Source: a virus. From it: a stretch of DNA of 64,000 nt. The stretch is from the IMG/VR virus record IMGVR_UViG_3300031652_000001; one strand, given 5' to 3'. The notes beneath the pieces are model-generated. The model had not been told where the DNA came from and did not search any database. It saw nothing but the letters and a program-made list of their open reading frames with translations. Both the position numbers and the translations under genes were made by a program. This document shows positions 17,633-50,841 of the stretch, one piece after another (position 1 is the stretch's first letter; each line of letters opens with the position of its first letter).

Positions 17633-17643
17633 GAATATCTCCT

Positions 17644-18367: not shown

Positions 18368-18498
18368 ATTTTGTCATTTCACATTGACACAAAAAGTTTT
18401 TTTGGTAATATCCAAACCACCTAAGCACGCAACGTGCAACCCCCCCGTCTCTGAGGGCATCGGCTTCGCCAGTTGGTGCCCTCTTTTTTTATACTTTG

Positions 18499-18585
18499 CG
18501 GGAGCGCCTGGATTCGAACCAGAACCACGTTTTACCGTGCTCTATCCTTTCCACGGATGGGCCTTACCATTGAGGCTACACTCCC
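18499..18585 (-). tRNA. tRNA-Ser(GGA)
   Basis: CAUCC-GUGGAAA-GGAUA, long variable arm, G73. Confidence 0.85.
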
Positions 18586-18594
18586 TATCTCGCC

Positions 18595-18613
18595 TATTCA
18601 GTTGTCAACGAAC
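18595..18613 (-). promoter_or_regulatory. BoxA-like antitermination element
   Basis: GTTCGTTGACAACTGAATA just upstream of the tRNA cluster; resembles rrn leader boxA. Confidence 0.5.
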
Positions 18614-18880
18614 AACGACAAAATGCCTTCCGGACATACGGCGCCCGAAACAACACGAAACCCACCTCGTTATCTACGAGGTAAGGTCTACCAGCTCAAA
18701 TACGATGAAAATAAAAACAGACAGGATATGAGGAGCCCATTGACCATTGCGGTATGAATCATTTGTCTCTGCTCATTTTGTTCTCGATGCCTTTTCATGG
18801 CACACCTCCTGTCAGCAACAGCAAGAATACTTTGTGAAATTGATTTCAGTCAAGAAAAAAACAAGGTGGGTCAGAAAATA

Positions 18881-19795: not shown

Positions 19796-19905
19796 TCAAT
19801 TCCTCCCTTTATCGTTCACATACCCAAATATTTCTGAAACCGACAAAGGTGATAGACCACGGAAAAAAACATCGCAACAAAAAATATTTATGGAAAAGAA
19901 AGGAA

Positions 19906-20355
19906 CTAAGAATTCAGAACATGATCGAAAGCTTGCAGTGCATCACAAATTTTCTCAATCCTCCTCGAAACCTTTTTCTCATGTTTTGAATGACCGGATG
20001 TTGCCCTTGCCAACTTCTCTGAAAGTCCCCTTGCCAAAGAAGCATAGTCAATCAACCCAATAACACTGTAAAGTTTATCCTTCGAATCAACACGATCAAC
20101 ATGCTCACCAACAACATAGACAGACTTATTCGTAATGAAAATATTATCGACTTTCAAAACTCTTCCTTCGAAGTCATCCATGTTGTCGCCAACAATATCT
20201 ATGACAGGAAATACGGCCTCAACCAAACGCCAAACAGCCTCAACCTTCAATGAAGAAAATTCCTTTCTAGCCTCCCCACTTTTATTCCACTCACTCAGCA
20301 ATCTCTCAACTTGCTGAACCAAAATCCCATCAATCTTCGACATCATTATCCTCAT
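19906..20355 (-). CDS. Hypothetical protein
   Basis: ORF overlapping the upstream stop. Confidence 0.6.
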   Translation of the reverse strand: MRIMMSKIDGILVQQVERLLSEWNKSGEARKEFSSLKVEAVWRLVEAVFPVIDIVGDNMDDFEGRVLKVDNIFITNKSVYVVGEHVDRVDSKDKLYSVIGLIDYASLARGLSEKLARATSGHSKHEKKVSRRIEKICDALQAFDHVLNS

Positions 20356-21193
20356 TCGTCTGCTGTATCAACGGATGATTCCAGTTCACTATCAGTACCC
20401 CAAAAGTATCAACATCACCCCTTCCCGATTTTTTATTTTCCCGCTTCCAAACATTCCTCTTCTCCATCTCAATAATGGTCTCCCTGATGTCCTTTCTCGC
20501 CAATTCAGGAAATCTATCAGACAAGAAATTGATAAAAGGAGAAAGCCAGAGCTCTGGGTTATTATACCGCGCTCTCATCTCGTGAGCGACATGAGCAAAA
20601 GCCTCCCATCTCTCAGCTTCCTCTTTATCAATCCCCTTTGGAATAGCACTCTTCTTCTTCTTCTTTTCATCAGCTTTTTTAGGAATCGTGGATGGCGCCA
20701 ACAGCATACACTCCACAAGTTTAGTTGGATCAAAGAAACTCTTTTCTCCAATAAATCTCAAAAGATCTCCGGACATGGACTGAGGCATTGAACAGACAAA
20801 ACACCTTTTACCAAGCTCTTTCAGTTTGGCAACCACCGGTATAAAATCACGATCCCCACCAATTATACAAAACGTTTCAATGTTCGGTCTCGTGTAAACA
20901 GTCTCAATAGCGTCAACGGCCAACATGAGGTCAGCAGAATTTTTGGATAGCTCGGCAAGCACATGCATCGAAACAAAGCCATCAAGGGCAAGCTCATTCG
21001 CCATGGATGCATATTCATGATCTCCAAAGGGGAGATAGCTCCTTCTTATCACCACAGTAGAATCGAACTCTGTTTCTATCTTAGATATTACCGCCTCAAT
21101 GATGTTCATGAAGAGAATGTCGTGTTCCTGATATTTGCCACGTAAAGACAAATACAGATTCTCATAGTCAAGAAGTATCGCCGCCAAACTCAT
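20330..21193 (-). CDS. NYN (LabA/DUF88, PIN-like) RNase domain protein
   Basis: LLDYEN, KNSADLMLAVDA and GGDRDFIP acidic motifs. Confidence 0.9.
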   Translation of the reverse strand: MSLAAILLDYENLYLSLRGKYQEHDILFMNIIEAVISKIETEFDSTVVIRRSYLPFGDHEYASMANELALDGFVSMHVLAELSKNSADLMLAVDAIETVYTRPNIETFCIIGGDRDFIPVVAKLKELGKRCFVCSMPQSMSGDLLRFIGEKSFFDPTKLVECMLLAPSTIPKKADEKKKKKSAIPKGIDKEEAERWEAFAHVAHEMRARYNNPELWLSPFINFLSDRFPELARKDIRETIIEMEKRNVWKRENKKSGRGDVDTFGVLIVNWNHPLIQQTNEDNDVED

Positions 21194-21196
21194 AGT

Positions 21197-21433
21197 TCAC
21201 CTTTCTTTCTTGATAATGTCGGTCACCTCTTTTCTCATCCTCTCACAATTCTTAACATCCTTCATGATGGACAGAAAAGACAGCTCGGTCATGGTCAACG
21301 ATCTACTCCTCAGGCGATCATCCCTGTAGCAAATTCTCATCAAACCCTTCCTCTCCTGGTAATGAAGGGTATACCCATTTCTCATCCCCGTCTGAATCGC
21401 TTCAACCGCTTGTTCTCTCGAAACCTTTCCCAT
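21197..21433 (-). CDS. Hypothetical protein
   Basis: GGAGG RBS before MGKVSRE. Confidence 0.55.
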   Translation of the reverse strand: MGKVSREQAVEAIQTGMRNGYTLHYQERKGLMRICYRDDRLRSRSLTMTELSFLSIMKDVKNCERMRKEVTDIIKKER

Positions 21434-21496
21434 CTTATAAAAACCTCCATAAAAAAGTCGAGCCCCACCTTTGAGGCCCGACCATGTCTCGCTCAA

Positions 21497-22678
21497 TTAT
21501 GCCGCTTTGTTGTCAACAACCTTTATATTGCACCTGGTAAGAACTGTCTGTTTCACACCCTTGTACGCATCATGTTTTTTGACAGTACCAGTAACCACCA
21601 CCTCTGCACCAATCTCATAGTCGACATCAGTGGAGGTAAACCACTTGAACTTGTTTCCATCGGAATCCTCGAAAAGAACCATGAAGCACTCACCAAACTG
21701 CCCGTAAAAACCACGAACCATGGTGATAACCGCTTTGATCCCTTTGATTCTCTCACCTATATTACCAATGTGCTCGGAGACCTTTTTCACCGGCTTCTTC
21801 GCTCTCACGTTGTCCCTGTCGTATGCCGCCACCAAAGACGCCACCAAACCCCTTGTCCGCCCCGTAACGTGGTCCAGATTGCACGCAACCTGAAGATTCC
21901 AGATGTATTCGCTCCACATTCCATCTTGCTTCGCTTTGATCCAAGCCATCGCCGCATCGGCCTTTTCGAAATCTCCCTTGGTCGGTTGACTGCGCTGCCA
22001 CTGTTCAATATCGTACCTGTTCTCCGTCTTCGGGAGCGGCCAATACAAGAACTCAGCAGACCTCACAGTCGCCTTGTTATCCTTGGAGGGATAGAAGCAC
22101 CCATCTTGCCTTACGGCCGCACACGCGCACGCCACGAAGTCTCTCGTTTCGGGGTAACCGGCTGTCACATCATAATCCCTGTACGTCCCCTCGTTGTACT
22201 CTTTCTCAAAACTGGCCCAGAACATGAAATATGAAGCCACCTTGTCAACGTCGATGTCCCTGATGAAGTCCGCCAAACAGGTTCTACCAACCTGCATGAT
22301 GATTCCAGTCTCAACGTGCTCGACGAAGAAGGTGTCCTTCCGACGCCGATTCGTGGAACAGTGGTCGCAATTCGGTTTCGCCGAACGCCAGTCGCCAATG
22401 TCCTTTATACTGTCGATCCGGGTAATGATGTTCCCCTTCTCAGTATGCTCAACCCTCGCAACAAGGCGATAGCCGTTCACTACAGGGATCTCCCCGGCCA
22501 ACTCGAACCGAACAGCTTCCACCTTGACGGATCTACCTCTGGCTACTTCGACCCTAAAAAAGGTTTCCTCAACGTTCTCGATGGAGATTCCACCACCAAT
22601 CTTCCGTCCCCTCTTATTGAGAGCCGCTACCTTTTTTTTGAATTTTGGGAAATGACTTGCTTCGATTACGTATGCCAT
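21497..22678 (-). CDS. Conserved phage protein with CxxC motif and C-terminal OB-fold-like domain
   Basis: CDHC...R.RKDTF...QVGRTCL and SEHIGNIGERI motifs; own promoter. Confidence 0.7.
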   Translation of the reverse strand: MAYVIEASHFPKFKKKVAALNKRGRKIGGGISIENVEETFFRVEVARGRSVKVEAVRFELAGEIPVVNGYRLVARVEHTEKGNIITRIDSIKDIGDWRSAKPNCDHCSTNRRRKDTFFVEHVETGIIMQVGRTCLADFIRDIDVDKVASYFMFWASFEKEYNEGTYRDYDVTAGYPETRDFVACACAAVRQDGCFYPSKDNKATVRSAEFLYWPLPKTENRYDIEQWQRSQPTKGDFEKADAAMAWIKAKQDGMWSEYIWNLQVACNLDHVTGRTRGLVASLVAAYDRDNVRAKKPVKKVSEHIGNIGERIKGIKAVITMVRGFYGQFGECFMVLFEDSDGNKFKWFTSTDVDYEIGAEVVVTGTVKKHDAYKGVKQTVLTRCNIKVVDNKAA

Positions 22679-22724
22679 TGTTTGCCTCCGCAGCAACCAT
22701 GAGGACTCCGCATCCTCTTCTACA

Positions 22725-22753
22725 AAGCTAATACGTATTCAGGGTCGCGTCAA
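22725..22753 (-). promoter_or_regulatory. Sigma70-type promoter
   Basis: TTGACG-17 nt-TAGCTT. Confidence 0.6.
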
Positions 22754-22781
22754 GCGATAATGCGAAATTGATTTCACATTA

Positions 22782-23681
22782 TCAAAAATCGCACAATCCC
22801 CACTTCATACAGGAAGACCTGTCCGGACTCCAAAATAACTCATACTGGACGCCCCCCCTCGACGTCTTTGACCACTCGACCACCTCATCTATCGGAGAAA
22901 AAACGGTCTTGCCCTTGACCTTTCTGGAAAAAAACGTCGGAGGAAGATAACCAAGAGACTCAAACGTCTCCCCTTTTGCAGCATACCTATCCCGAGCAAG
23001 CTTCTCCACCTTGCCCTCTATCTCCCTTATTAACGATATTTTCTCCGGAGACATCTCAGACACAAGACGGATCTCGTCTTTCCTGGCAAAAATACACGGC
23101 CAACACCCAACCCGCTTCACCCCTTTCGTATACAAAGAATTCGGTGGAATGTTGTGTCTCTTGTGAATGGCGATGACATCATCCTCTGTCCAAGTGATCA
23201 TCGGCCTCCAGGTGTCCACCCAATCAACGTCCTCCCACTCCTCAAGTTTCGATCTCGCTTTCGATTCAGCAGCTCGAACACCAACAGCGTTTACGATCTT
23301 GTCCTCCCCAAAGACCTCCTCAACCCAAGCCATGAATGGATAGATCTTCAAGCTCTGAGTACAGAACCGATTCATCCTCCCAGGAAACATCCCCTTCGAC
23401 AAAATTAATTCTTCCATGCCAAACCGTGGTTTTATCCACTCAATGTCACAGATTGTCTTGCTCAAAACATCACGGATATAGTCGTCCGTCGACGGATGTT
23501 CCCACCCCGTATCCATATGGACAGCCCGATATTCAATGCCAAGCTCCTTCAGAAGCAAACAAAGCGCTGTCGAATCCTTACCGCCTGATACACTGGCAAC
23601 AACAGGACGGCCATTCACCCTACCAATGTCCATATGCTCACCCAGAAATGGAAATTCCCGCTTGCTATGCCCCTTCATCAA
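22782..23681 (-). CDS. Phosphoadenosine phosphosulfate reductase family (PP-loop) protein
   Basis: SVSGGKDS, DTGWE, RFCT..LK, GVRAAES..R and RVGCWPC motifs. Confidence 0.9.
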   Translation of the reverse strand: MMKGHSKREFPFLGEHMDIGRVNGRPVVASVSGGKDSTALCLLLKELGIEYRAVHMDTGWEHPSTDDYIRDVLSKTICDIEWIKPRFGMEELILSKGMFPGRMNRFCTQSLKIYPFMAWVEEVFGEDKIVNAVGVRAAESKARSKLEEWEDVDWVDTWRPMITWTEDDVIAIHKRHNIPPNSLYTKGVKRVGCWPCIFARKDEIRLVSEMSPEKISLIREIEGKVEKLARDRYAAKGETFESLGYLPPTFFSRKVKGKTVFSPIDEVVEWSKTSRGGVQYELFWSPDRSSCMKWGLCDF

Positions 23682-24030
23682 ACTTCTCCTCGTTTTCTTT
23701 CTTCAACTCACACCCAGGTTGAGGATCGACAAAATATCAGGAGACCTGATACGGCCACCACACCCATAATATCGTGTCTAGTCTTTTTCTTTTGTCTTAT
23801 ATTTATGGAAAGGACTTTTTACAATATCAAAAGAAATCAACTGGTAATCAACAACCCTCTCAACACCATCCTCACCAACAACAGTCCTACCCTTCCCACC
23901 AATTGAAATTGATATAGAAGCCGGTCTCCTTCTTCGAAGGTATTCGCTGTAGTGCCATATCCTGATTCTTGAAAACCACCAATATATCAAGACCAAAGAT
24001 AGTAGAAGAGCACCTCCAACAATTAGCAGA

Positions 24031-24729
24031 TCACAGAGCATTACCAAACTCCAACGCCTTCTTTATCTCGAATTCCGTTTTGGTCATAAATGAATACCGG
24101 AAACCACTTTTGTTATCCTTCAAAGCACGACACCACTTCTTCCAGTATTTCGATCTCGGAGCAACAATGTATGCCCCTCCCTCGGCGCCATATTCCGGAT
24201 CATCCACATCCTCACAAAGAAACCGAACCACGTTTGGATTCCAGCTCGTATGACCGGCCGTCTTGTGCGCGTCGACCCACCCATCCGTGATCCCCCTCCG
24301 GACCATCTCATCCCTGAGCATATCCGCAAACCCTCCGTCTGTCCCAGGTCCTACCCCCTTGACGTTTGTATCCCTGACATTGTTCTCGGCTGCCAGGCAA
24401 GCATAGAGCCCCACCTTCAGGTCCTCTTCTGCCCTAAGATTCGCCACCAAAAGATCAACGTACTTCAACGTCAAACCGAACTTGATGCCATGAGGAAAAC
24501 CATGACCAAAAAAGGCCAACACCTGCAACCCTTCTCGTTTGGAGATTTCCCCAAGGACCAGATCCCTCCTATTCGCCGGTTTGTTACCCCTCGTACAATC
24601 GACGCCGATGAAATTTTCATCAGGTATGCCGTAATAACGTTTGAAGGCTTTCGCCTCGGGTATAAAAGCCCCCGTCGCGTCAACTCTTCCAGGTTCGTTT
24701 TTCTTCGAATAAAAGACCAATGCTTTCAT
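24031..24729 (-). CDS. Hypothetical protein (possible His-Cys peptidase-like)
   Basis: FFGHG and LYAC motifs reminiscent of a caspase-like His/Cys dyad; weak. Confidence 0.5.
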   Translation of the reverse strand: MKALVFYSKKNEPGRVDATGAFIPEAKAFKRYYGIPDENFIGVDCTRGNKPANRRDLVLGEISKREGLQVLAFFGHGFPHGIKFGLTLKYVDLLVANLRAEEDLKVGLYACLAAENNVRDTNVKGVGPGTDGGFADMLRDEMVRRGITDGWVDAHKTAGHTSWNPNVVRFLCEDVDDPEYGAEGGAYIVAPRSKYWKKWCRALKDNKSGFRYSFMTKTEFEIKKALEFGNAL

Positions 24730-25139
24730 GAGTCATCTCCATTCTTTCTAAAAACCATCGTGGCATAATTTGATGGCCTTTCCGCCATTATGTACACATG
24801 GATTTTTATCTCAGAACAATTCTCGTCAACAACAGCCCTCGCCGGTACACCGTGATACCTCAGACCGATGGACATGCAGTTTGCAAAAAAATGCTCCATA
24901 CCTTGACCCAATTCTCGCAAGATGTTCTCAATCTCTGCCATTGAAACAAGCTTCCGAATGGCATCAATAGAAAACTTCGCAGTAGCCCATTCTTTGAATT
25001 CCGGAGTCTTATTCAGATTCTCAAGAAAAACTACCCGTCTCGAAAAAAAACCAGTTATCTTGGCAACTACTCCATCACAAATGACCGTTTCACCAACAGA
25101 AAACTGTCCTACTCTTTTCATCTTTTTCCTATCAACCAT
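24726..25139 (-). CDS. Hypothetical protein
   Basis: GAGG RBS; ATGA overlap. Confidence 0.6.
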   Translation of the reverse strand: MVDRKKMKRVGQFSVGETVICDGVVAKITGFFSRRVVFLENLNKTPEFKEWATAKFSIDAIRKLVSMAEIENILRELGQGMEHFFANCMSIGLRYHGVPARAVVDENCSEIKIHVYIMAERPSNYATMVFRKNGDDS

Positions 25140-25240
25140 CTCTTACCTCATAAATACATCTACAACAAAAATTCTTATCTTGTTGTTACATCAATTGAAA
25201 AAAACCGGATACCGGAGCACGTTATTCCACATGCTCCGGT

Positions 25241-25360
25241 TGCGACAGGCTCCGGAAAACCTACGGTCCCTTTGGACCGGCCAGTGGCCTTAATTCGGAC
25301 GAAAGGAGATAGGGAATGAGGAACCCCATTAAATTTCCGAAACACTGGTCTTGTGTCGCA
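25241..25360. ncRNA. Candidate structured RNA
   Basis: Nested stems tgcgaca/tgtcgca, ggccagtg/cactggtc and ttcgga/tccgaa, plus an adjacent hairpin at 25211-25240. Confidence 0.45.
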
Positions 25361-25595
25361 CATAGCGCCTCCACCAGGATGCTTTTATCGCCAAGCCCAG
25401 AGCGCGTCCAAACCCACCTTGTCGGACGTATCAAGTGGACTGAAAGAGGACACCCCTCCAATCCCTTTATCAGGTAATCCCAAGTCTGCTCTCAATTCAA
25501 AAACTTCTTGGCGACTACTTGTTACTGAAAAATGTTTCGTGTCACTAGCCAATTTCAATATCCTATTCCACGATTCAATATCCATGTCTTCTCCA

Positions 25596-25811
25596 TCAAG
25601 CATCAATAATAATAGACAGAGCCTCTTTTTCTTTTTTTGAAAACCCAATAGCAAAAGAAGCAAACTCTACCGTTCTTTTGTCTATCAAGCTCTCTATACC
25701 ACCCTCTATATTGGACTTCTCAAAGACATCACCAGAATCAGGATCTCCACCACAAGCCTTCACATACGCCCTTACCCGCTTAAAGAGATCCAGTCTATCC
25801 TTTGCCCTCAT
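25596..25811 (-). CDS. Hypothetical protein
   Basis: Short ORF downstream of tRNA. Confidence 0.5.
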   Translation of the reverse strand: MRAKDRLDLFKRVRAYVKACGGDPDSGDVFEKSNIEGGIESLIDKRTVEFASFAIGFSKKEKEALSIIIDA

Positions 25812-25829
25812 TGGAAATCACCATCCTTG

Positions 25830-25903
25830 TTGCGGGGGCCGGATTTGAACCGACGACCTTTTGGTTATGAACCAAATAAGCTACCAGACTGCTCTACCCC
25901 GCA
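25830..25903 (-). tRNA. tRNA-Met(CAU), initiator-like body
   Basis: UGCGGGG...AGAGCAGUCUGGUAGCU...CAU; fMet-like but U1-A72 paired. Confidence 0.87.
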
Positions 25904-26052
25904 AGATGAGTAGGATAGCTGCAACCATCCTACTCTGATAGATTTGGATCACGACTCTATCAATCGCTGCTACACCGAGAGGGAATATTACAAAAAAAAA
26001 CCTCGGCCGATCCATTCCCATAGTGCCTAACCCCTCAGTCACTACATAAAGC

Positions 26053-26307
26053 CTAATGCATTACATACATGATCGCAAGGCCAATACCCGTCAATAATGA
26101 AAAAATAAAAGCCACCCTGGCAACAATATAAAATGATCTACTCATTGGAACAACCCTGTAGAAACCATACTCCTCATTCACCTCGTCCAAAACTTTTTGG
26201 ACCTCATAGGAAGACATCTTCCCCACATCAATATATTCAACTTTTCGTTCAGGACGTGGCCAAGGCTCCTGTGGCTCAACATGTTCTGGTATTAACGGAT
26301 TACTCAT
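26053..26307 (-). CDS. Hypothetical membrane protein
   Basis: C-terminal TM helix. Confidence 0.55.
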   Translation of the reverse strand: MSNPLIPEHVEPQEPWPRPERKVEYIDVGKMSSYEVQKVLDEVNEEYGFYRVVPMSRSFYIVARVAFIFSLLTGIGLAIMYVMH

Positions 26308-26644
26308 CGTTTGTATCCCATTTCATCACATATACAGACTCACCTCGACTTATAACAAACCTCCCCTTTGAGTCCTTCTCATTTCTGTCGATGTCGTCAC
26401 AAGTCAAAAACACTCCATCTGGCATGGCAACATGCTCATTGAACCATTTTACAAAATCATTCTTGTCCATTTTTCTTTTCCTGGTCATCCAGCCAATCAC
26501 GAACCTTTTCGTGATCAACACGAGAAAACAACTGAATGGTCCCGTCATCCTTGTCGACTTGAGCACCGATAGCACCATAATGCGTATCATACATATCGTC
26601 ATCAATTCCGAAAAGACCATTCAATATCCCAAGAACACCAACCT

Positions 26645-26965
26645 TCAACCTTTTTCCCATTCATAAAGATATTTTATTGGGGGTGGTTCAGGAACAGGTG
26701 GAACCGCATTTGGAACAATATCTGTCCACTTTGACAAATCACCATCTTCACACAGTTGATCATCTGTCCTGTTATCGATCTGTATCAACAGAACATAAGG
26801 CAAGTCGAGTTGCCCCGTGAAAGCCTTTTCGACAATACCCACTGGAGCATGCATAGCTCCAACATCAAGCTCCTCAGAGTCAACTGAAAATCCGTGGAGG
26901 AAACCGTAATAGTCAACCTCCTTCTGTTCCCTCGTCTTATAGACAATTACCCTTTTTTTCATCAA
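26645..26965 (-). CDS. Hypothetical protein
   Basis: GAGG RBS. Confidence 0.55.
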   Translation of the reverse strand: MMKKRVIVYKTREQKEVDYYGFLHGFSVDSEELDVGAMHAPVGIVEKAFTGQLDLPYVLLIQIDNRTDDQLCEDGDLSKWTDIVPNAVPPVPEPPPIKYLYEWEKG

Positions 26966-26981
26966 TGACCTCTCAATCCAG

Positions 26982-27055
26982 CACGCCCGGCCCGACTCGA
27001 ACGGGCGACCTCCGGTTTAGGAAACCGATGCTCTATCCTGCTGAGCTACGGGCGC
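26982..27055 (-). tRNA. tRNA-Arg(CCU)
   Basis: Canonical cloverleaf, loop UUCCUAA. Confidence 0.92.
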
Positions 27056-27067
27056 AAAAAAATAACA

Positions 27068-27376
27068 TCAAATCCTATGGCCACTCTCTCTTCCAGGATC
27101 AGCTCCACTAATAGTGGTCCCTGGATTCATAGAGACTCTCACTGAAGAAGTCGGAACATTATGCTTATCTCGCTCAACAGCTTCCTCGCCAAAAGCAACC
27201 ACGGCATCAAACGCAACTCTCGCAAGAACATAATCCGGAGTGTTCGAGTAAGCCTCAAAACCATTCCTATTGAACAGCTCTCTGAGCTGACTCAATATTT
27301 CACGCTCGACTTCCCTCGACGGCTTCTTCCCAAACTTATCGTTGATACGTGTTTCAATTTTGTTTTCCATCTTCAA
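27068..27376 (-). CDS. Hypothetical protein
   Basis: SNTPDYVLA motif, common in phage proteins. Confidence 0.6.
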   Translation of the reverse strand: MKMENKIETRINDKFGKKPSREVEREILSQLRELFNRNGFEAYSNTPDYVLARVAFDAVVAFGEEAVERDKHNVPTSSVRVSMNPGTTISGADPGRESGHRI

Positions 27377-27785
27377 GACCTTTTATGATTTTTTCACTGT
27401 ATTTCAAAGCAAACGATGTCTCAGAATAGTTGAGACAAATCATCTTCACAGCAATCGTCGATATATCAGAAACCTTTTCGACCAATGCTGTATATCCAGT
27501 ATGGATTGTCTTCCCGTGAGCAACCCTTACCCTCCAACCAGTCTGAAACGGCTTTAGTGAAACTGAAATCAAACTTTCAAAAGCATCAGAAAGCACTTCT
27601 TCAAGGTTCCACATCCCACCAAACAAAACCTCATTTATTACCCGTATCGGTACATCCTGACCCAACAATCTAATGTACTCAATAACAACAGAATGAACAT
27701 CATCATCAACGATACTGTGTTCAAGAAGATCCCAATTGTAATTAATCTTTTTTGCAAAAACAGAATACACAATCACCACCTCTTG

Positions 27786-27859
27786 TCGGGACGAGAGGAT
27801 TTGAACCTCCGACATCCGGTTCCCAAAACCGGCGCGCTACCAAACTGCGCTACGTCCCG
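27786..27859 (-). tRNA. tRNA-Pro(UGG)
   Basis: Canonical cloverleaf, loop UUUGGGA. Confidence 0.93.
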
Positions 27860-27862
27860 AGA

Positions 27863-27970
27863 GGAACACCAACAGAATTCGAACCCAACGCTTTGACAAT
27901 CGGTCAACCTTGTCTCACGTAGACTGACTTTAGCCAGCCTGAACGATTCCAAACATTCCTATGATGCCCC
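27863..27970 (-). ncRNA. tRNA-like element (atypical)
   Basis: Acceptor-like stem GGGGCAUCA/UGGUGUUCC and a GUUCGAAU T loop, with no recognisable D or anticodon arm. Confidence 0.4.
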
Positions 27971-28004
27971 ATATTTTTTCTTCTCATTCCCCTCAGAAGG
28001 AGGA

Positions 28005-28391
28005 TTATTCGATTTCAAAAAAATTATCCGCTCGCGCACTCGGTTTTTCAACATCAAAGTTCTCCCATGAGGGCTTTCTCCTCAAGATAAGATGGTCGCT
28101 GTTGTTAACGGTACCACTCTTTCGAACTTCTCTTCCTATCACCCAATACAACATCGTTCCTTCTTTTATCAGATGTTGTTCGCCTTCAGCGATAGACCGA
28201 AATTTGAACTCACCCTCAATAATCTCTGTGCTTTCGGCTCCAACTTTGTGAAGGTGTGCGATGAAAGAATCTTCGAGTACTTTCTTGATACAGCCGTCCC
28301 ATTCCTCAACCAATCCACCCATCGAACGACTTTTGCCACCCCTGTAAATCACAGTAGGATTACTCTCCATTTCCCTGTTTCTTTTTCCCAA
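28005..28391 (-). CDS. Hypothetical protein
   Basis: AGGAG RBS. Confidence 0.6.
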   Translation of the reverse strand: MGKRNREMESNPTVIYRGGKSRSMGGLVEEWDGCIKKVLEDSFIAHLHKVGAESTEIIEGEFKFRSIAEGEQHLIKEGTMLYWVIGREVRKSGTVNNSDHLILRRKPSWENFDVEKPSARADNFFEIE

Positions 28392-28563
28392 CTTATCTCC
28401 TGTTTACACCGTAAATAAACTCAGCCGGAGTGTCCACTTATCAAAACGACTAAATACCCTGTCCAGAACCGTCCAAAGGTAATCTGCTTGCCTGACAAGC
28501 CACGAACTATCGCCCCCGGCCTGAACCCCCGGAAGGACCTTTCGGTAGTCCCAGAAGCTCTTG

Positions 28564-28731
28564 TGGGCCAAGCAGGATTCGAACCTGCACAGATGCTCTG
28601 ATGTTGGTATTCCCTGGTACGCGACTGTCCACCGATAGAATACCCATTTTCCAGTCAGCTTCAACACGCATCGATTCAGCATCTTATCCAACACGTCACC
28701 AGTTAGCGTCTACCTTTTCCGCCATTGGCCC
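28564..28731 (-). ncRNA. tRNA-Leu-like RNA with ~90 extra nucleotides in the anticodon/variable region
   Basis: Perfect acceptor GGGCCAA/UUGGCCC-A, Leu-type D arm GGCGGAAAAGGUAGACGC and perfect T arm GCAGG-UUCGAAU-CCUGC; 168 nt long. Confidence 0.7.
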
Positions 28732-28897
28732 ATTCTATCGAAGATCTTCCAGTGGATCGTCGTATTCTCCAAGCACCCAACCGAGAGCACTGGCGACACC
28801 ATCCAGAAAGGCATCATCCTCGTTCTCTTCTCTCATCTTCAATGCCTCTTCGTAAATCCTCTGAATATCTGGTCTGTCCATTTACCACCTCATTTTG

Positions 28898-29283
28898 AGG
28901 ACACGCCGGGAATCGAACCCGGGTCCGAATATCGTCATCGGCATGAATCTTCCACATGCTTGGTCTGTCAATATACCCTCATCTCAATGGCAACAGACAA
29001 CCATCGAAATATTCGTTTCTGGAATATCGCTTTCGCTCGCCACTACTTACGACGTCACTGCATGCATCCCAGAAAATACAGCAGCTATCCTGTTGAAAAT
29101 GACGCCCTTATGCCTACACAGGCACTCGACAATCGGACGGCTCAAGCAGCTATTTCAAACTGTTGAACAGGTGTGTTGTCTCTTTTGGCAACTGTTTTTG
29201 AGCATTCTTTTTAACCCGCTGAATACACAAAGCGGGACATGCTCCACACGGAATCATGATACCCGTCGAATCCAATCGTGCCC
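28898..29283 (-). ncRNA. ssrA: tmRNA; tag peptide AKRDNTPVQQFEIAA* (29189-29142)
   Basis: 5' GGGCACGAUUGGAUUCGAC, G3-U70 acceptor stem, 3' T arm CCGGG-UUCGAUU-CCCGG, tag ending in AA-stop. Confidence 0.93.
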
Positions 29284-41669: not shown

Positions 41670-42446
41670 TCACTGAAAAACGTCCGATACAGCACCAATA
41701 ATCGACTCTATGTTTGCAGCGTAAAATCCAGCAGAGTTGAAACAGCCCAGTTCTATTACCTTGTAATCTCCATAGTGAAGACCAATATCCATCACAAAAA
41801 CCCTGGATGGAGAATACAGATCACAAAGATTTTTTGTTATCCCAATAAGGTCTTCGGGATACCCAGCTGAAACATCCAGTCTTGACCGCTTTCGATACTG
41901 ACTTCCGGATACTACCTGATTATCAACGATCCAAAGCCTCCACTCTCTCTCTATATTCCGAGGACTCGAAATCATTATCGGCTCACCATCTAGATCTGTT
42001 CCGTGAACCTTTCCAGAAAAAACCAGTATATCTTCCTCCCGAATCAACTGACCGTTGAATGCCTTATTATCTCTGTCCGGCCTCACAAAGACCAAACCAT
42101 CGCATGAAAGCTCCTTTGCTATATCAACCGTCTCTTCTGACCCGAGTCGAGCAAAAACACCATCATTGTTCAGCACCATATCACCATATATCGGCATCCA
42201 AACCGAACACACCGAACTCGGATTAAAAAACGTACCAGGCGCCCAACTACCCTTTTCCTGAATTCGCTCTATCCACTTTGTGGCACCATAAAAAATAGTC
42301 GGAACACCATTATCGACATCCGGAAGGTCATCAGAAAACGGAATCACCTCCACCCCATAAAAATCGTGTCCGTACTTTTCACACGCCCTTTTTATGGCTT
42401 CAACATCATCAGTTTTTCCGAGGTTATTCTGACACACCCACTTCAT
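41670..42446 (-). CDS. ATP-grasp domain protein (DUF4343/R2K-like)
   Basis: FVRP...KAFNG, EWRLWIV, FVMDIG...VIELGCFNSAGFY. Confidence 0.85.
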   Translation of the reverse strand: MKWVCQNNLGKTDDVEAIKRACEKYGHDFYGVEVIPFSDDLPDVDNGVPTIFYGATKWIERIQEKGSWAPGTFFNPSSVCSVWMPIYGDMVLNNDGVFARLGSEETVDIAKELSCDGLVFVRPDRDNKAFNGQLIREEDILVFSGKVHGTDLDGEPIMISSPRNIEREWRLWIVDNQVVSGSQYRKRSRLDVSAGYPEDLIGITKNLCDLYSPSRVFVMDIGLHYGDYKVIELGCFNSAGFYAANIESIIGAVSDVFQ

Positions 42447-42461
42447 CTCAGACCTCCAATT

Positions 42462-42788
42462 TCAATCATCAAAATCCGGAATCTCCACCGTCTTTCCCGA
42501 AAGGAAATGAGTGCTGTCAGTAAGGTATCGAATCTTCCCATCCGTCACAAATGAATGACAAAGGTTCTCACCGGTGCGTGCACGAATACTCGGTTTCACA
42601 GTTGGTTTGTCATCCTCAACACCGGAAACCGTCCAACGCGGCCGTGGTCCCCTCACCCTCACTGAATGAGCAAAGCCACACCCCGGACAATGAAAGGCAT
42701 ATTGTTTTTCTGTTTCATTATCCATAAGCACTATGAACTTCATATTAACCTCACTCTTGATGTTATTCTTTCGGAATATCTTTACCAT
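42462..42788 (-). CDS. DUF6527-like protein
   Basis: FHCPGC...H...PT..PSI...CHSFVTDGKI.YL.DSTH. Confidence 0.75.
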   Translation of the reverse strand: MVKIFRKNNIKSEVNMKFIVLMDNETEKQYAFHCPGCGFAHSVRVRGPRPRWTVSGVEDDKPTVKPSIRARTGENLCHSFVTDGKIRYLTDSTHFLSGKTVEIPDFDD

Positions 42789-43288
42789 CAGACATTCTTC
42801 AGACCTTTTGCCTTTCTCTCTCTCGTCATGGCCCTTCTCACCGCAGCCAAATCTTTTTTCAGTAACCGGATTTGCTCTTGAACCGTTATGACCTCACCAT
42901 CTTCTTCATCGTCTTCAAAATCACCTGCCAAGTATCTCACCAAGTCTTTCTCTTCTCTCTTCAATGCCTGAAGTTTAGTGGTAAACAACCACTCAAACTT
43001 ACTTGGCCTCAAAGAACCATCGTCGAGAAGATGAAGGACAGTCTTGTCGCTTTTGGATATACTTTTAGCCCAACCATAGTCGAAATGCTTCTTCGATTTC
43101 TTGACCCACGTATACTTATTTTTGCAAGTAAGATATGCACGTCTTTCATACGATCCAGAATCAGGATACCCAGGTATCGGCTTGAAATCACACCGACGCT
43201 GGATGCTTGTGATGATCCACTCCCTAAAAAAAATCTTCCCTTCATCAACAAGCGCACTCCAAAAAGACTGTCCAACTTTAGGTTTCAT
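42788..43288 (-). CDS. Hypothetical protein
   Basis: ATGA-coupled to 43285-43839. Confidence 0.6.
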   Translation of the reverse strand: MKPKVGQSFWSALVDEGKIFFREWIITSIQRRCDFKPIPGYPDSGSYERRAYLTCKNKYTWVKKSKKHFDYGWAKSISKSDKTVLHLLDDGSLRPSKFEWLFTTKLQALKREEKDLVRYLAGDFEDDEEDGEVITVQEQIRLLKKDLAAVRRAMTRERKAKGLKNV

Positions 43289-43839
43289 TCATTACCACCC
43301 TCTCTATCCGAAATTTTTCCAGGTAACAAATCGGCCGGATCTACTTTAGGACGCTTCTTAATATCCCCTTCTGAAATTTTTGGGATTCCACTTTCCACGG
43401 GAGCAAAAATAGGGACTTCTCCCTTTTTGATTTTTCTGAGTGTCGTTATCATCCGGCTCCCAAGAATAATGCCCTTTTCCCAGCTTGCTCTACCATCAGG
43501 AGTCAAAAGATTTAAATCTGTACGGTTCAGTACTTGTTGAGACCGAAGAACTTTCCTAAACGCAGTCTTCCTGGTTCTTTCTGCATAGTCTGGATTCGAC
43601 TCATCTTCCAAAATACGTATTCCCAGCCTTTCGCATTTACATACCAATAATCTACCTGTCTGATCGGAAAGATCCTCTATCTTCTTTGCCAATTTAACTG
43701 TCTCTAGTTGATACCTAGGAAAATCATCCTCTCTTTTTACACCGTGTATCTCTTCACATCTACTTGGAGAAATCCATTCTCCTTTTTTTAAAAGTGTAAC
43801 ATCAAGAGGATAAAACTTGACTTGCTGTACAACATCCAT
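43285..43839 (-). CDS. Hypothetical protein directly downstream of the pentamer array (candidate accessory protein)
   Basis: Starts ~20 nt after the last repeat; basic, helical C-terminal half. Confidence 0.65.
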   Translation of the reverse strand: MDVVQQVKFYPLDVTLLKKGEWISPSRCEEIHGVKREDDFPRYQLETVKLAKKIEDLSDQTGRLLVCKCERLGIRILEDESNPDYAERTRKTAFRKVLRSQQVLNRTDLNLLTPDGRASWEKGIILGSRMITTLRKIKKGEVPIFAPVESGIPKISEGDIKKRPKVDPADLLPGKISDREGGNE

Positions 43840-43860
43840 TGAAAAACCTTTTGTCTTTAA

Positions 43861-44815
43861 TTAGACCTCAAGCTTTGAAGTGATCTCTACCCGAGGTACC
43901 CTTCCGATCCATTCCTTTCCATTCCCTTCCTCTCCCATCCGTTCCACTCCGGTCCGTTCCTCTCCAATCCAGTATTAGACCTCAGGCTTTGACATGATCT
44001 CCACCCGAGGCACCCTTCCTCTCCATTCCTCTCCATTCCTCTCCGTTCCAATCCGTTCCCGTCCGATCCGCTCCAGTCCTATCCCGTCTCAGACCTCAGG
44101 TTTTGAAGCGATCTCCACCTGAGGTACCCTTCCTCTCCCTTCCGATCCATTCCCTTCCGCTGCTTTCCGATCCCTTCCGGTCCGAACCCGTCCCTTCCTT
44201 TACAATCCCTTCCATTCCAGTCCGATCCCATGTTAGACCTCAGGCTTTGACATGATCTCCACCTGAAGTACCCTTCCTTTCCTTTCCGGTCCTTTCCCAT
44301 CCATTCCTCCCCAATCCAATCCAGTCCTTTCCACTTCATTCCCCTCCAATCCAGTCCTTTCCACTTCATTCCCCTCCTATCCAATCTCAGACCTCAGGTT
44401 TTGACATGATCTCCACCTGAAGTACCCTTCCTCTCCTTTCCCTTCCAATCCTATCCGTTCCAGTCCGTTCCCTTCCCCTCCAATCCAGTATTAGACCTCA
44501 GGCTTTGAAGTGATCTCTACCCGAGGTACCCTTCCTTTCCATTCCGGTCCTATCCGTTCCAATCCTGTCCGCTCCCGTCCGATCCGCTCCAGTCCAATCC
44601 AGTCTCAGACCTCAGACTTTGAAGTGATCTCCACCCGAGGTACCCTTCCTCTCCCTTCCATTCCTCCCCTGTCCAATCCATTCCATTCCACTCCGTTCCT
44701 CTCCCCTCCAGTATTAGACCTCAGGCTTTGACATGATCTCCACCTGAAGTACCCTTCCTCTCCCTTCCTTTCCTATCCTTTCCTTTCCATTCCATTCCTC
44801 TCCTATCCGGTCCCT
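43861..44815 (-). repeat. Array of 8 units: (NN-GGA)12-22 tract plus 44-nt hairpin repeat (candidate guide-RNA array)
   Basis: Repeats start at 43861, 43973, 44087, 44231, 44385, 44489, 44603 and 44712. The tracts hold 14, 14, 20, 22, 12, 14, 13 and 12 phased pentamers; 114 of 121 have exact TCC (GGA on the minus strand). Confidence 0.95.
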
Positions 44816-44833
44816 TTAATCACCATTTTACTG

Positions 44834-45412
44834 CTAAAGAAACTCGACGTTGAATCGACCAAATCTCGGTCGATAATCACCGACCCCCTTGTCGCCGCAC
44901 ACCTCCAAAATTGACTGAAGCTTTTGCTCCGTAAATGGAGCACCATAGGCAATGACACCCTCCGCAACCCACCCCTTGAACATCGGCCTCGTCCTAAGGA
45001 CCTTCTTCTTGGCGACGTTGACCAAACACTGATACATGCAGTTCATGTCACCATATCGTTTTCTGGGATCCGACGGACCTTCGAAATCCGTCAACTTGAA
45101 GGGCTCCTCCACCAAAATTGTCTGAACGGTTTCGGCTTTCGAAATCTTCGCCTCATTCCATCCTGCATCTCGTATCATCGCGACAATATGATCCACCGGA
45201 ATGATGTATTTGCCATCGCCATCCATAATGAGACCACCAAAAAATTCCGCCTTGGCGATGGCCTCATAATTCTCGGAAGTTTTCTTTTTTCCACCACGGT
45301 CTGTCTCTTCCTTCACACGTTGTGATGCCGGATCCATTGGATTCGCCAATCGATTGTTGTGTTGAAGATACGCAGAAAGCCCAACAAATCTCACCCTCAT
45401 CTCTTTTTTCAT
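44834..45412 (-). CDS. RAMP/Cas7-like small protein heading the pentamer array
   Basis: N-terminal strand VRFVGLSAYLQHN, RTRPMF..W, and C-terminal Gly-rich loop GVGDYRPRFGRFNV, as in RAMP-fold proteins; the stop is 18 nt from the array. Confidence 0.7.
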   Translation of the reverse strand: MKKEMRVRFVGLSAYLQHNNRLANPMDPASQRVKEETDRGGKKKTSENYEAIAKAEFFGGLIMDGDGKYIIPVDHIVAMIRDAGWNEAKISKAETVQTILVEEPFKLTDFEGPSDPRKRYGDMNCMYQCLVNVAKKKVLRTRPMFKGWVAEGVIAYGAPFTEQKLQSILEVCGDKGVGDYRPRFGRFNVEFL

Positions 45413-45472
45413 GATCCTATCCTCTTTCTATATCTGTTTCTTTTTGGTCCCTATTGACCAAAACTCACCATC

Positions 45473-45916
45473 TTATTCGACCTTTTCTCTATCTTCCCCC
45501 ATTGAAGCTCTCACCACCATAGCTTTCGCTATTTCTCCGTGCTTTGCTTCACAAATCCTAATTGCCTCATCAATGTGACTCATCGCCTGAATCAACGTCG
45601 TAGCATTAGCTGAATTCACCCATGTCTGAAGGAGGCTAGCAAGCAATCCCTTTTGCTCATCAAGAGCACCACAAACCCCATGAAGACTCAGTCCAAGGCT
45701 CTTTGTTTTTTCGACATCAGAAAAAACAACTTTCTCAAGACACTGAATCGGCCACCAACCAAACCTGGTTCCGTAGAGCTCTTCACCCTCATCGGATTTT
45801 ACATCCATAACATGACAAGTTTCACCAATACTGTTTCGGGTCACAGGACGTTCAACGATCCACTTTCGAGTGAAACTGTTATCAACAATCCTTACCAGAT
45901 CCCCTTTTGACGGCAT
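45473..45916 (-). CDS. Hypothetical protein
   Basis: GGGAG RBS before MPSKGD. Confidence 0.55.
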   Translation of the reverse strand: MPSKGDLVRIVDNSFTRKWIVERPVTRNSIGETCHVMDVKSDEGEELYGTRFGWWPIQCLEKVVFSDVEKTKSLGLSLHGVCGALDEQKGLLASLLQTWVNSANATTLIQAMSHIDEAIRICEAKHGEIAKAMVVRASMGEDREKVE

Positions 45917-46259
45917 GATTGCTCCCTTCATACGCCCGGATGAGAGCTGAAAAGATATCGTTAATATCAGCAGGTTTGTAAACAATCTGGACACCAGGAT
46001 AATGTGCTTTTGAATCCCCCGTATGGAGGACAACCGGTATCGGAGACATCTCGACGACTCGATAACCACTGTCCTTCGTCGGACAGTCGAGGTCACTGAG
46101 AACGATATCATACTTGCCGGTCTTGATCTCGGATATACCAGCATCCGTCGAAAGCGCCACAGTAATGCTTTTCCAGTTTCTTCGCAAACACCTGACCAGC
46201 ATCCGCGCTACCGGCTCTTCATCCTCGATGACCAAAAGATTCATTTCGTTCGTTCTCAT
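45882..46259 (-). CDS. Single-domain response regulator (REC)
   Basis: LLVIEDE, DIVLSD (phosphoacceptor), VVLHTG and KP. Confidence 0.85.
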   Translation of the reverse strand: MRTNEMNLLVIEDEEPVARMLVRCLRRNWKSITVALSTDAGISEIKTGKYDIVLSDLDCPTKDSGYRVVEMSPIPVVLHTGDSKAHYPGVQIVYKPADINDIFSALIRAYEGSNHAVKRGSGKDC

Positions 46260-46302
46260 ATCTCCCCCGTTTCTTCGGGCACCTAGCCCGGCATCTCCTA
46301 TG

Positions 46303-46340
46303 AGTCTATCCATTAAAAACGCGAAGTCAAGTTCACTTTT
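46303..46340 (-). promoter_or_regulatory. Phage promoter (GAAC-TTGACT family)
   Basis: TTGACT-16 nt-TAGACT; heads the REC / RAMP-like / array operon. Confidence 0.65.
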
Positions 46341-50371: not shown

Positions 50372-50841
50372 CGTCGCCAATTTTCCTCGACGGAAGTACT
50401 TTCGAAACATCGGAAAGAATATCAACGAAAACAGGACCTATGTGAGCCGCAAAAATACGGTTACCCTTCGTCTTGAGAATGTATGTATCCGCCCCTTTAT
50501 AATCCTCGACCGTAACAAATTCAAAAGACTTGCCATTGAATAAATAAACCTCATCTCCAATCTTGAACGGATCTCCACTTCTATCAAAATCACTCATCAG
50601 AATTCATCTTTGCATCTATCAAAGCCCTTTCAGCCCCAATAGAATCAAACGTTTCCCATTCTCCACAGCGACCATCCCTCCACGTCTCCAGACCATAGAA
50701 TGAAGACTTGTCGCAACGGCACTCCCCCTCAATCATCATTCGTCCCTCCTCTGTAAACCAATCCTTGCACGTCCGACATTGACCCCACCAATCAAGATGA
50801 ATACGTATCGACTCTTCAATATCCATGGTCAACCCTTTCGC

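What the first reader, a model, noticed from the sequence alone, without database searches (positions are those of the whole stretch)
43285..45412. Candidate RNA-guided system: RAMP/Cas7-like gene, array of (NN-GGA)n tracts with hairpin repeats, and accessory gene
SEEN: a 192-aa gene ending in a Gly-rich loop (GVGDYRPRFGRF) is followed 18 nt later by 8 units. On the coding strand each unit is a perfectly phased run of 12-22 pentamers NN-GGA followed by a conserved 44-nt repeat. The GGA is nearly invariant (114/121) while NN uses all 16 dinucleotides and differs between units, so the information sits only in NN. A 184-aa gene starts ~20 nt after the last repeat. No cas1/cas2/nuclease gene is present in the window. 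KNOWN: RAMP proteins such as Cas7 have a C-terminal Gly-rich loop and oligomerise along guide RNA with a fixed nucleotide period. INFERENCE: each unit is a guide RNA, one protomer binds each GGA, and the NN pairs read a non-contiguous (gapped) target, for example in competing phages or host genes. From memory, and unverified here, phage systems with a RAMP-like protein and RNAs of alternating GGY/NN motifs (called VIPR) were reported recently. If this locus is related, it would be a GGA-scaffold variant with hairpin-delimited multi-guide units.
Basis: partly seen in the sequence, partly recalled or inferred. Interest (0 to 1): 0.97.

Follow-up and report, generated by a model that had tools for sequence, protein, structure and literature searches.

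The report
Phage VIPR system with GGA-scaffold guides
This large uncultured phage carries a VIPR system, a CRISPR-related RNA-guided DNA silencer first described in 2026: the kind is known, but its eight guide RNAs use GGA where published ones use GGC/GGT, and the protein pocket that reads that base differs to match.

Summary
On the minus strand a 192-aa gene (45412-44834) is followed 17 nt later by eight head-to-tail units. Each unit is 13-23 A-NN-GG pentamers (A 126/129, GG 125/129, all 16 NN used) plus a ~41-nt hairpin. A 184-aa gene (43839-43285) follows.

The 192-aa protein is a full-length homolog of the solved SUSP1 Vipr protein (E 3e-19) and folds like Cas7. The 184-aa gene is a divergent vap1-family accessory gene. 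This scan has already noted VIPR loci on other DNA (94 notes, at least 85 genomes).

What differs:
- The scaffold is GGA, not GGY. The published SUSP1 pocket excludes purines.
- The G1/G2-reading residues are invariant in all but 7 of ~135 Viprs examined, whereas the third-base pocket positions are changed in the GGA clade.
- The array sits between vipr and vap with no internal promoter detected.
- The tail is a covarying 9-bp hairpin with a conserved loop.
- A sister phage with 99% identical flanks has 7 units, showing guide turnover by duplication, loss and point change.

No natural target was found. This is a new variant of a known kind, of moderate interest.

The parts
44834..45412 (-). 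vipr gene: 192-aa Vipr protein (minimal Cas7-like RAMP)
   Evidence: phmmer hit to PDB 36pp_D 'SUSP1 Vipr protein', E 3.2e-19, residues 4-191 vs 3-189. phrog_4652, E 1e-30. AF2 model pLDDT 93.9. Foldseek matches type VII Cas7, Csm3 and Cmr4 at prob 1.0, TM ~0.5. H18, K34, R142, D179, Y180 and R181 correspond to SUSP1 H17, K33, R138, D177, W178 and R179.
44713..44816 (-). vrRNA unit 1: 13 A-NN-GG pentamers (44816-44752) plus hairpin tail
44604..44712 (-). vrRNA unit 2: 14 pentamers (44712-44643) plus hairpin tail
44490..44603 (-). vrRNA unit 3: 15 pentamers (44603-44529) plus tail. It is a paralog of unit 7 (shared run CT GC TC CG) and is absent from the sister phage L086.
44386..44489 (-). vrRNA unit 4: 13 pentamers (44489-44425) plus tail
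44232..44385 (-). vrRNA unit 5: 23 pentamers (44385-44271) plus tail. It holds an internal 6-pentamer tandem duplication that the sister phage lacks.
44088..44231 (-). vrRNA unit 6: 21 pentamers (44231-44127, three imperfect) plus tail; identical in the sister phage
43974..44087 (-). vrRNA unit 7: 15 pentamers (44087-44013) plus tail; identical in the sister phage
43858..43973 (-). vrRNA unit 8: 15 pentamers (43973-43899) plus the last hairpin tail; identical in the sister phage
43285..43839 (-). vap: 184-aa accessory gene, a divergent vap1-family member with a predicted winged-helix-like N-domain and a long helical hairpin
   Evidence: Conserved downstream of the array in L081 (40% id, E 2e-39) and L082 (33%, E 4e-21). 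The family has 1,400 representatives, mostly ~150 aa. Its HMM hits the ORF just after vipr in 26/86 loci, including Felixounavirus wV8 vap1 at E 3e-5. hhalign to wV8 vap1 gives prob 64%, E 6e-5. AF2 model pLDDT 87.7. Only weak winged-helix matches.

Best explanation
The locus is a VIPR (Viral Interference Programmable Repeat) system of a ~162-kb uncultured phage, organised as one operon: vipr, eight vrRNAs, vap.

By analogy with the characterised SUSP1 system, the array is transcribed with vipr and cut into eight vrRNAs, each made of 13-23 A-NN-GG repeats capped by a 3' hairpin tail. Vipr protomers polymerise one per repeat into a helical filament. Conserved H18/D179 and R142/Y180 hold the two flipped-out guanines. 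The third scaffold base (A here, a pyrimidine in published systems) sits in the neighbouring protomer's pocket, which is remodelled in this clade: D74/H75 replace E71/M72, and the G-loop is one residue shorter and lacks the C173 equivalent. The exposed NN pairs read double-stranded DNA with one target base skipped per repeat. The bound filament, helped by the Vap DNA-binding partner, represses transcription of a competing mobile element.

Shown here: homology, anatomy, conservation, hairpin covariation, and the residue pattern. Inferred: transcription, processing, filament formation, the skip rule and the biological target.
For: - **Sequence homology:** the protein aligns over its full length to the solved SUSP1 Vipr protein (E 3.2e-19). 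It has a Cas7-like fold.
- **G1/G2 readers conserved:** the published G1/G2 and target-backbone contact residues are conserved. R138, D177, an aromatic at 178 and R179 are invariant, and H17 holds in all but 7 of ~135 Viprs.
- **Arrays travel with the gene:** all 80 IMG/VR relatives, the close metagenomic relatives and most genome relatives carry period-5 GG arrays, mostly on the vipr strand.
- **One GGA clade:** the window, L081, L082-84 and L001 form a single Vipr clade (SH-aLRT 98, quick tree). They share a tail hairpin whose 9-bp stem is 94% paired, with compensatory changes in 8/9 pairs, against 20-49% in slid controls. The loop GAGATC..TCA is invariant.
- **Pocket tracks the scaffold:** GGY loci have bulky aliphatic or Cys residues at 172-173. 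The GGA clade has a shorter loop with Lys, or Asn-Thr in L001, and Q/H at 72. Distant A-rich lineages (L147 26/26 GGA, L146, L131/140/141/145) have Gly173.
- **Published support:** the SUSP1 pocket 'sterically excludes purines', and a GGY>GGA guide variant was among the perturbations reported to abolish silencing.
- **Accessory gene:** the vap gene is conserved and belongs to the family found directly after vipr, including Felixounavirus vap1.
- **Single transcript plausible:** no promoter or terminator signal lies inside the array.
- **No self-targeting:** no self-target in the window under the 1-nt-skip rule, as published for other VIPRs.
- **Selection on guides:** the sister phage with 99% identical flanks differs in guide content while three guides are identical.
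Against: - There are no expression or binding data for this locus.
- The scaffold base is one that inactivated SUSP1 guides, so the mechanism is carried over from a 28%-identical homolog with a different RNA specificity.
- The pocket explanation is correlative. The GGA clade is a single origin in my tree. Gap placement in the G-loop is ambiguous. Lys at 173 also occurs in GGY lineages, and Ser173 (L108) goes with GGC.
- How eight promoter-less units are processed is unknown.
- The Vap fold has no confident match.
Confidence: 0.82

Rival explanations
1. It is a VIPR-family system, but the GGA clade reads targets by a different rule or reads a different substrate: another skip length, RNA rather than DNA, or cleavage rather than silencing. 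The published 1-nt-skip DNA-silencing mechanism would then not transfer.
For: The scaffold base and its pocket differ from every characterised system. The published rule was established only for type II GGY systems.
Against: K34 (SUSP1 K33, which contacts the target backbone next to the skipped base) and the thumb arginine are conserved. No nuclease gene accompanies the locus; the partner belongs to the vap1 family, which the paper calls predicted DNA-binding. Skip rules 0, 2 and 3 did no better than skip 1 in the DNA I hold.
Confidence: 0.12
2. The array mainly produces decoy or hijacking RNAs aimed at rivals' Vipr proteins, as satellites do with solo vrRNAs, rather than guides for the adjacent Vipr.
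For: Solo vrRNAs that redirect another element's Vipr are documented (abstract). The scaffold differs from the common GGY.
Against: The array sits 17 nt after its own vipr gene. GGA arrays co-occur with the remodelled-pocket Vipr in every member of the clade. GGY-type Viprs are expected to reject GGA, so GGA RNAs would be poor decoys for them.
Confidence: 0.04
3. The repeats act at the DNA level (iteron-like protein-binding sites, recombination substrate or structural DNA), and the neighbouring RAMP-like gene is unrelated to them.
For: No transcript data exist for this locus.
Against: The compensatory changes in the tail stem point to an RNA structure on the vipr strand. Arrays are on the gene's strand in nearly all loci. 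The homologous SUSP1 arrays are proven guide RNAs bound by Vipr.
Confidence: 0.02

Closest known systems
Type II VIPR system of Escherichia phage SUSP1 and other Felixounaviruses (bioRxiv 10.64898/2026.04.26.720920; structures 10.64898/2026.04.26.720927; PDB 36pp)
   Same: A homologous Vipr protein over its full length, with the same G1/G2-reading and target-backbone residues. Pentamer guides with two fixed Gs and a variable NN. A structured 3' tail. A vap1-family gene. Phage-borne, with no adaptation genes.
   Different: About 28% protein identity. The scaffold is GGA rather than GGT/GGC, and the third-base pocket positions differ (E71/M72/C173 versus D74/H75 and a shorter loop). Gene order is vipr-array-vap rather than vrRNA-vipr-vap-vrRNAs. 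There are eight head-to-tail units with no spacer large enough for separate promoters, where wV8 has ~40-nt spacers. The tail is a simple covarying hairpin with a conserved GAGAUC..UCA loop instead of a hairpin plus pseudoknot. Vap is 184 aa, not 146.
Non-canonical VIPR repeat units (bioRxiv 10.64898/2026.10.21.760802; also 'NNNGG, YNNNG, NNNNG' in the discovery paper's methods)
   Same: Divergent VIPR systems whose fixed trinucleotide departs from GGY, found next to Vipr-like folds.
   Different: The motifs named in the text I could read are GAC/NN, CAC/NN, WGT/NN and TGH/NN. GGA/NN is not named, and the figures and tables were not readable. No link to pocket residues is described there.
'Staggered' vrRNA arrays (discovery paper, fig. 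S18 legend)
   Same: Head-to-tail vrRNAs in which the end of one marks the start of the next. Here the last bases of each tail form the first pentamer of the next tract.
   Different: Only the legend is available, so I cannot tell whether that architecture has this hairpin tail, this scaffold or this Vipr clade.
Class 1 CRISPR backbone (Cas7: Csm3, Cmr4, type VII Cas7)
   Same: An RRM core, a Gly-rich loop and a thumb, oligomerising along a guide with a fixed period. Best structural matches at TM ~0.5.
   Different: A period of 5 with only 2 reading bases per subunit. No repeat-spacer array, no Cas5/Cas6/Cas10/Cas1/Cas2. The guides are genomically hard-wired.

Membership tests
VIPR system | Vipr protein: a minimal RAMP homolog with an RRM core, G-loop and thumb | tested here: met
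   E 3.2e-19 to the solved SUSP1 Vipr over the full length. Cas7-like model.
VIPR system | Residues that read the two scaffold guanines (SUSP1 H17, D177, R138, W178) | tested here: met
   H18, D179, R142 and Y180. R138, D177, an aromatic at 178 and R179 are invariant, and H17 holds in all but 7 of ~135 relatives.
VIPR system | Adjacent vrRNA genes: tandem pentamers with a fixed trinucleotide and hypervariable NN | tested here: met
   129 units; GG 125/129, A 126/129, all 16 NN used.
VIPR system | Canonical GGY scaffold (pyrimidine at the third fixed position) | tested here: not met
   A in 126/129 units. The papers allow 'a related consensus', so this marks a variant rather than exclusion from the family.
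VIPR system | Conserved structured 3' tail after the repeat tract | tested here: met
   A 9-bp stem, 94% paired, with 8/9 pairs showing compensatory change across 18 tails from 4 loci. A SUSP1-type pseudoknot was not examined.
VIPR system | vipr-accessory (vap) gene in the locus | tested here: met
   The 184-aa gene is conserved in clade loci. Its family lies directly after vipr in 26/86 loci, including wV8 vap1.
VIPR system | Guides match natural targets by the 1-nt-skip rule and do not self-target | tested here: inconclusive
   No self-target in the window. No target found in the DNA held, in IMG/VR seeds for guides 2, 3, 4, 6, 7 and 8, or in a metagenome seed for guide 7.
VIPR system | vrRNAs are expressed, bound by Vipr, and direct DNA binding or silencing | not testable with these tools
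   Needs sRNA-seq, pull-down and reporter assays.
VIPR type II (SUSP1 / P. fulva type) | Placement in the authors' Vipr phylogeny, plus a vap1 partner | tested here: inconclusive
   The vap shows weak but consistent vap1-family homology. In my quick tree the GGA clade is separate from wV8. The authors' type table (data S4) was not available.
CRISPR-Cas | Repeat-spacer array with contiguous spacers, plus cas1/cas2 or multi-subunit effector genes | tested here: not met
   The variable tracts are pentamer repeats, not spacers. The flanking ORFs show no Pfam or cas match.

The most novel reading that the evidence does not exclude
The GGA scaffold may be a 'private' guide alphabet. A change in the third-base pocket (positions 72 and 173 and the length of the G-loop) would make this Vipr load only GGA guides and ignore GGY guides, and the reverse for GGY Viprs. 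That would insulate the phage from rivals' decoy or solo vrRNAs and allow orthogonal VIPR systems to coexist in one cell. A-type scaffolds with Gly173 in unrelated Vipr lineages (a Nanoarchaeota MAG, Chitinophagaceae, Actinomycetota) would then be repeated, convergent switches of scaffold specificity in an arms race.
Probability: 0.3. Interest if true: 0.6.

Novelty: new variant of a known kind. Interest (0 to 1): 0.4.

Why it matters
VIPR was described only in 2026, and its published rule set is built on GGY guides. The SUSP1 structure explains GGY through a pocket that excludes purines, and published vrRNA callers are written as GG[C/T]NN, so they would skip loci like this one.

A natural, conserved GGA clade whose Vipr keeps the guanine readers but alters the third-base pocket offers two things. 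First, it is a ready-made comparison for working out how scaffold specificity is set. Second, it is a candidate orthogonal Vipr/guide pair for multiplexed programmable silencing.

The sister-phage comparison also shows how hard-wired guide arrays change without Cas1/Cas2: by unit duplication and loss, internal tract duplication and NN point changes. None of this alters the basic picture of VIPR, and the scan has met many VIPR loci already, so the interest is moderate.

Tried and rejected
- **Family libraries:** Pfam found nothing for vipr, vap or either neighbour. Rfam found nothing in 43200-45500 at E<=1.
- **Whole genome:** none is held for this window. The metagenome records behind L081, L082 and L086 are not searchable as whole records.
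- **Local target scans (1-nt skip):** all eight guides were scanned against the window plus 85 loci under skips 0-3, and 17 guides from L081, L082 and L001 against 1.0 Mb under skips 0-2. Nothing rose above shuffled-guide controls. The perfect skip-3 hits are the arrays matching themselves.
- **Collection target scans:** exact 10-11-dinucleotide seeds of guides 2, 3, 4, 6, 7 and 8 gave 0 hits in IMG/VR. A 9-dinucleotide seed of guide 7 gave 13 hits in JGI metagenome contigs, about the chance number. None extended, and the best was 23/30. These seeds needed exact matches and the host is unknown, so this says little about whether targets exist.
- **Host and relatives:** no close relative of the phage is in the phage collection. 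No GGA-clade Vipr is in the 185,579-species genome collection; the best match is 35%.
- **Vap fold:** Foldseek against the PDB gave no hit at E<=0.001, only weak winged-helix proteins. VIA-align wide matched only the generic helical hairpin at Z<8.
- **Other vrRNAs:** a weak period-5 signal near 50745-50789 is ordinary coding sequence.
- **Rejected readings:** a CRISPR array, because the variable parts are pentamer repeats and no cas genes are present. Coding sequence, because a period of 5 is not a multiple of 3.
- **Not run:** I decoded the guides as degenerate peptides by eye, but no tool allowed a degenerate-motif search of large protein sets.
Full report
**1. Observation.** Reading the minus strand of 43000-45700 with the ORF list confirms the layout.
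- A 192-aa ORF lies at 45412-44834 and ends ...GVGDYRPRFGRFNVEFL.
- After 17 nt come eight head-to-tail units, running to about 43858.
- After a further 18 nt comes a 184-aa ORF at 43839-43285.

In the register used in the literature (Y-NN-GG) there are 129 units, in tracts of 13-23. The first base is A in 126/129 and GG is present in 125/129. All 16 dinucleotides occur at NN. The conserved element between tracts is about 41 nt. Its last 2-3 bases vary because they form the first pentamer of the next tract. The small ORFs called inside the array are artefacts of the repeat.

**2. What the protein is.** Pfam has no match. PHROGs gives phrog_4652, of unknown function (E 1e-30). Against the sequences of solved structures the only hit is 36pp chain D, 'SUSP1 Vipr protein', at E 3.2e-19, aligning residues 4-191 to 3-189. 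An AlphaFold2 model from 44 homologs (pLDDT 93.9) matches Cas7-family subunits: type VII Cas7, Csm3 and Cmr4, at Foldseek probability 1.0, E 1e-5 to 1e-3 and TM about 0.5. The 'RAMP/Cas7-like' reading is therefore correct, and the closer statement is that this is a Vipr protein.

**3. The literature.** VIPR systems are described in bioRxiv 10.64898/2026.04.26.720920.
- A phage-borne minimal RAMP (Vipr) works with vrRNAs of 9-16 Y-NN-GG repeats followed by a conserved 3' tail, and usually one vap gene.
- The NN pairs read double-stranded DNA with one target base skipped per repeat, which silences transcription.
- Natural targets are competing satellites and prophages.
- Seven types are defined, 'all using GGY/NN or a related consensus'. 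Array forms include staggered head-to-tail vrRNAs.

The structure paper (10.64898/2026.04.26.720927) shows one protomer per repeat. G1 is read by H17 and D177, and G2 by R138 and W178. Y3 sits in the next protomer's narrow pocket (E71, M72, C173, T175, R179), which 'sterically excludes purines'. K33 contacts the target backbone. A GGY>GGA guide mutant was among the scaffold perturbations tested in SUSP1, and perturbing the motif abolished silencing.

A third paper shows satellites using solo vrRNAs as decoys. A fourth reports 21 clusters of non-canonical repeat units (GAC/NN, CAC/NN, WGT/NN, TGH/NN) next to Vipr-like folds. GGA/NN is not named in any text I could read, and the figures and data tables were not available.

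**4. Relatives and their arrays.** The word-index search found 65 homologs, of which six are 54-72% identical and the rest 42% or less. A scan of IMG/VR gave 80 loci at 37% identity or less. Every one carries period-5 GG arrays, nearly always on the vipr strand, and the third base is mostly C or T.

The exceptions define a GGA group:
- the window
- L081 (56% identical Vipr, on a 164-kb contig)
- L082-84 (55%, on a 92-kb element with integrase, ParB and DnaB)
- L001 (37%)

These use A in 79-100% of units. In a quick maximum-likelihood tree they form one clade (SH-aLRT 98). L001 branches deepest and a GGC locus is sister. So this is a single origin, and the careful tree search did not finish.

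A scan of 185,579 species genomes found no member of this clade; the best match was 35% identical. It did reveal A-rich scaffolds in very distant Vipr lineages: a Nanoarchaeota MAG with 26/26 GGA and simple T-run tails, a Chitinophagaceae MAG with 67% A, and Actinomycetota and Blastocatellia MAGs with 50-64% A.

**5. Pocket versus scaffold.** Felixounavirus wV8 served as a numbering proxy, since its H17, K33, E71, M72, R138, C173, D177, W178 and R179 match the published positions. R138, D177, an aromatic at 178 and R179 are present in all ~135 Viprs examined. H17 is replaced in seven distant loci: by Asn in six and by Arg in one.

The third-base pocket varies with the scaffold:
- GGY loci have L/M/Y plus I/V/C at 172-173, and mostly N, M or L at 72.
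- A large clade ('QN ALIGL') uses A, C or T but never G.
- The GGA clade has Q or H at 72. Its G-loop is one residue shorter and ends in Lys (..GDK-GVGD..), or carries Asn-Thr in L001.
- The distant A-rich lineages have Gly at 173, whereas their GGY cousins with the same H72 have V, K or N.

This fits relief of the steric exclusion described for SUSP1, but it is correlative. Gap placement is ambiguous, Lys173 also occurs in GGY lineages, and Ser173 goes with GGC in L108.

**6. The tail.** Eighteen tails from the window, L081, L082 and L001 align with an invariant loop core, GAGATC..TCA. The 9-bp stem around it is paired in 94% of cells, 8 of 9 pairs have changes on both sides, no shuffle reached the observed score (0/500), and slid controls give 20-49%. 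This supports a structured RNA on the vipr strand. Rfam has no match. It differs from the hairpin-plus-pseudoknot tail of SUSP1-type vrRNAs.

**7. The accessory gene.** The 184-aa protein has no Pfam or PHROG match. It is conserved after the array in L081 (40% identity, E 2e-39) and L082 (33%, E 4e-21). A profile search found 1,400 representatives, mostly about 150 aa. An HMM of this family hits the ORF directly after vipr in 26 of 86 loci, including wV8 vap1 (E 3e-5) and strong hits in L001, L004, L006 and L045. Profile comparison to wV8 vap1 gives probability 64% and E 6e-5 over 103 columns.

The model (pLDDT 87.7) has an N-terminal helix-helix-hairpin module and a long antiparallel helical hairpin. 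Foldseek gives only weak hits, nearly all winged-helix DNA binders. The wide structural search matched only the generic helical hairpin. I read it as a divergent vap1-family protein, probably DNA-binding.

**8. Organisation and expression.** In wV8 the order is vrRNA, vipr, vap1, vrRNAs, with spacers of about 40 nt. Here the array lies between vipr and vap with no spacers. No promoter or terminator consensus lies inside it, and no other vrRNA is present in the window. The simplest reading is one transcript that is processed at or near the hairpins. Which nuclease does this is unknown. This resembles the 'staggered' arrays mentioned in a figure legend.

**9. Array evolution.** A second contig from another sample (L086) is 99% identical in the flanking genes but has seven units.
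- The window's unit 3 is missing. It is a paralog of unit 7, shares the run CT GC TC CG, and differs by a one-dinucleotide indel.
- The 6-pentamer internal duplication in unit 5 is absent.
- Units 1, 2 and 4 each differ at one position.
- Units 6-8 are identical.

Guides therefore turn over by duplication, loss and point change.

**10. Targets.** Using the published NN?NN? scan, I found no self-target and no hit above shuffled controls in about 1 Mb of DNA held locally, for this phage's guides or for those of L081, L082 and L001. Exact seeds of six guides gave nothing in IMG/VR. One metagenome seed gave only chance-level hits that did not extend. The host is unknown. The window has 17 tRNAs and a tmRNA, 44% GC, and no close relative among the phage genome records searched. 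The biological target is unresolved.

**11. Verdict.** This is a genuine VIPR system. The kind is already published, and this scan has noted it on many other genomes. What is specific to this locus is the GGA scaffold with a matching change in the third-base pocket, the compact vipr-array-vap operon with a covarying hairpin tail, and direct evidence of guide turnover. I rate it a new variant of a known kind, of moderate interest.

Noticed in passing
window 10267-29283 (minus strand): ARAGORN tRNA genes and a tmRNA (28897-29283, tag AKRDNTPVQQFEIAA) in this stretch. ARAGORN scores them as ordinary tRNAs.
   Followed up: partly
window 41670-42788 (minus strand); same genes in L086:5052-6170: Just downstream of the VIPR operon lie a 108-aa protein with a precomputed Pfam BubE hit and a 258-aa protein with R2K_2/R2K_3 (ATP-grasp-like) hits, also phrog_7313. 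Upstream (45882-46313) is a 143-aa protein with a weak response-regulator receiver hit. No link to VIPR was tested.
   Followed up: no
whole window: Nearly all long ORFs lie on the minus strand. GC skew on the plus strand is strongly negative throughout (-0.20 to -0.38), so the coding strand is very G-rich over C.
   Followed up: no
L081:8964-9313: The related 164-kb phage carries a second GGA array of three units, with the same hairpin tail, about 1 kb downstream of its vap gene and separated from the main array by three genes.
   Followed up: no
L001:3880-3930 and L081:7277-7330: The last vrRNA of an array in these two distant GGA-clade loci ends not in the usual hairpin but in a shared ...GAAACGGGCTTCGGCCCGTC... 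element, a GC-rich tetraloop hairpin. It could be a terminator or a different cap.
   Followed up: no
L011-L019, L029-L065 and others (IMG/VR loci with Vipr pocket 'QN ALIGL'): A large Vipr clade uses A, C or T but never G at the third scaffold position (GGH). This probably corresponds to the 'NNNGG' class mentioned in the discovery paper's methods.
   Followed up: partly
tail loops, e.g. window 44735-44740: The invariant loop core GAGATC contains the palindrome GATC. In RNA that could allow loop-loop pairing between two tails. The structure paper reports a class in which two filaments meet at their 3' ends. This is pure speculation and was not tested.
   Followed up: no
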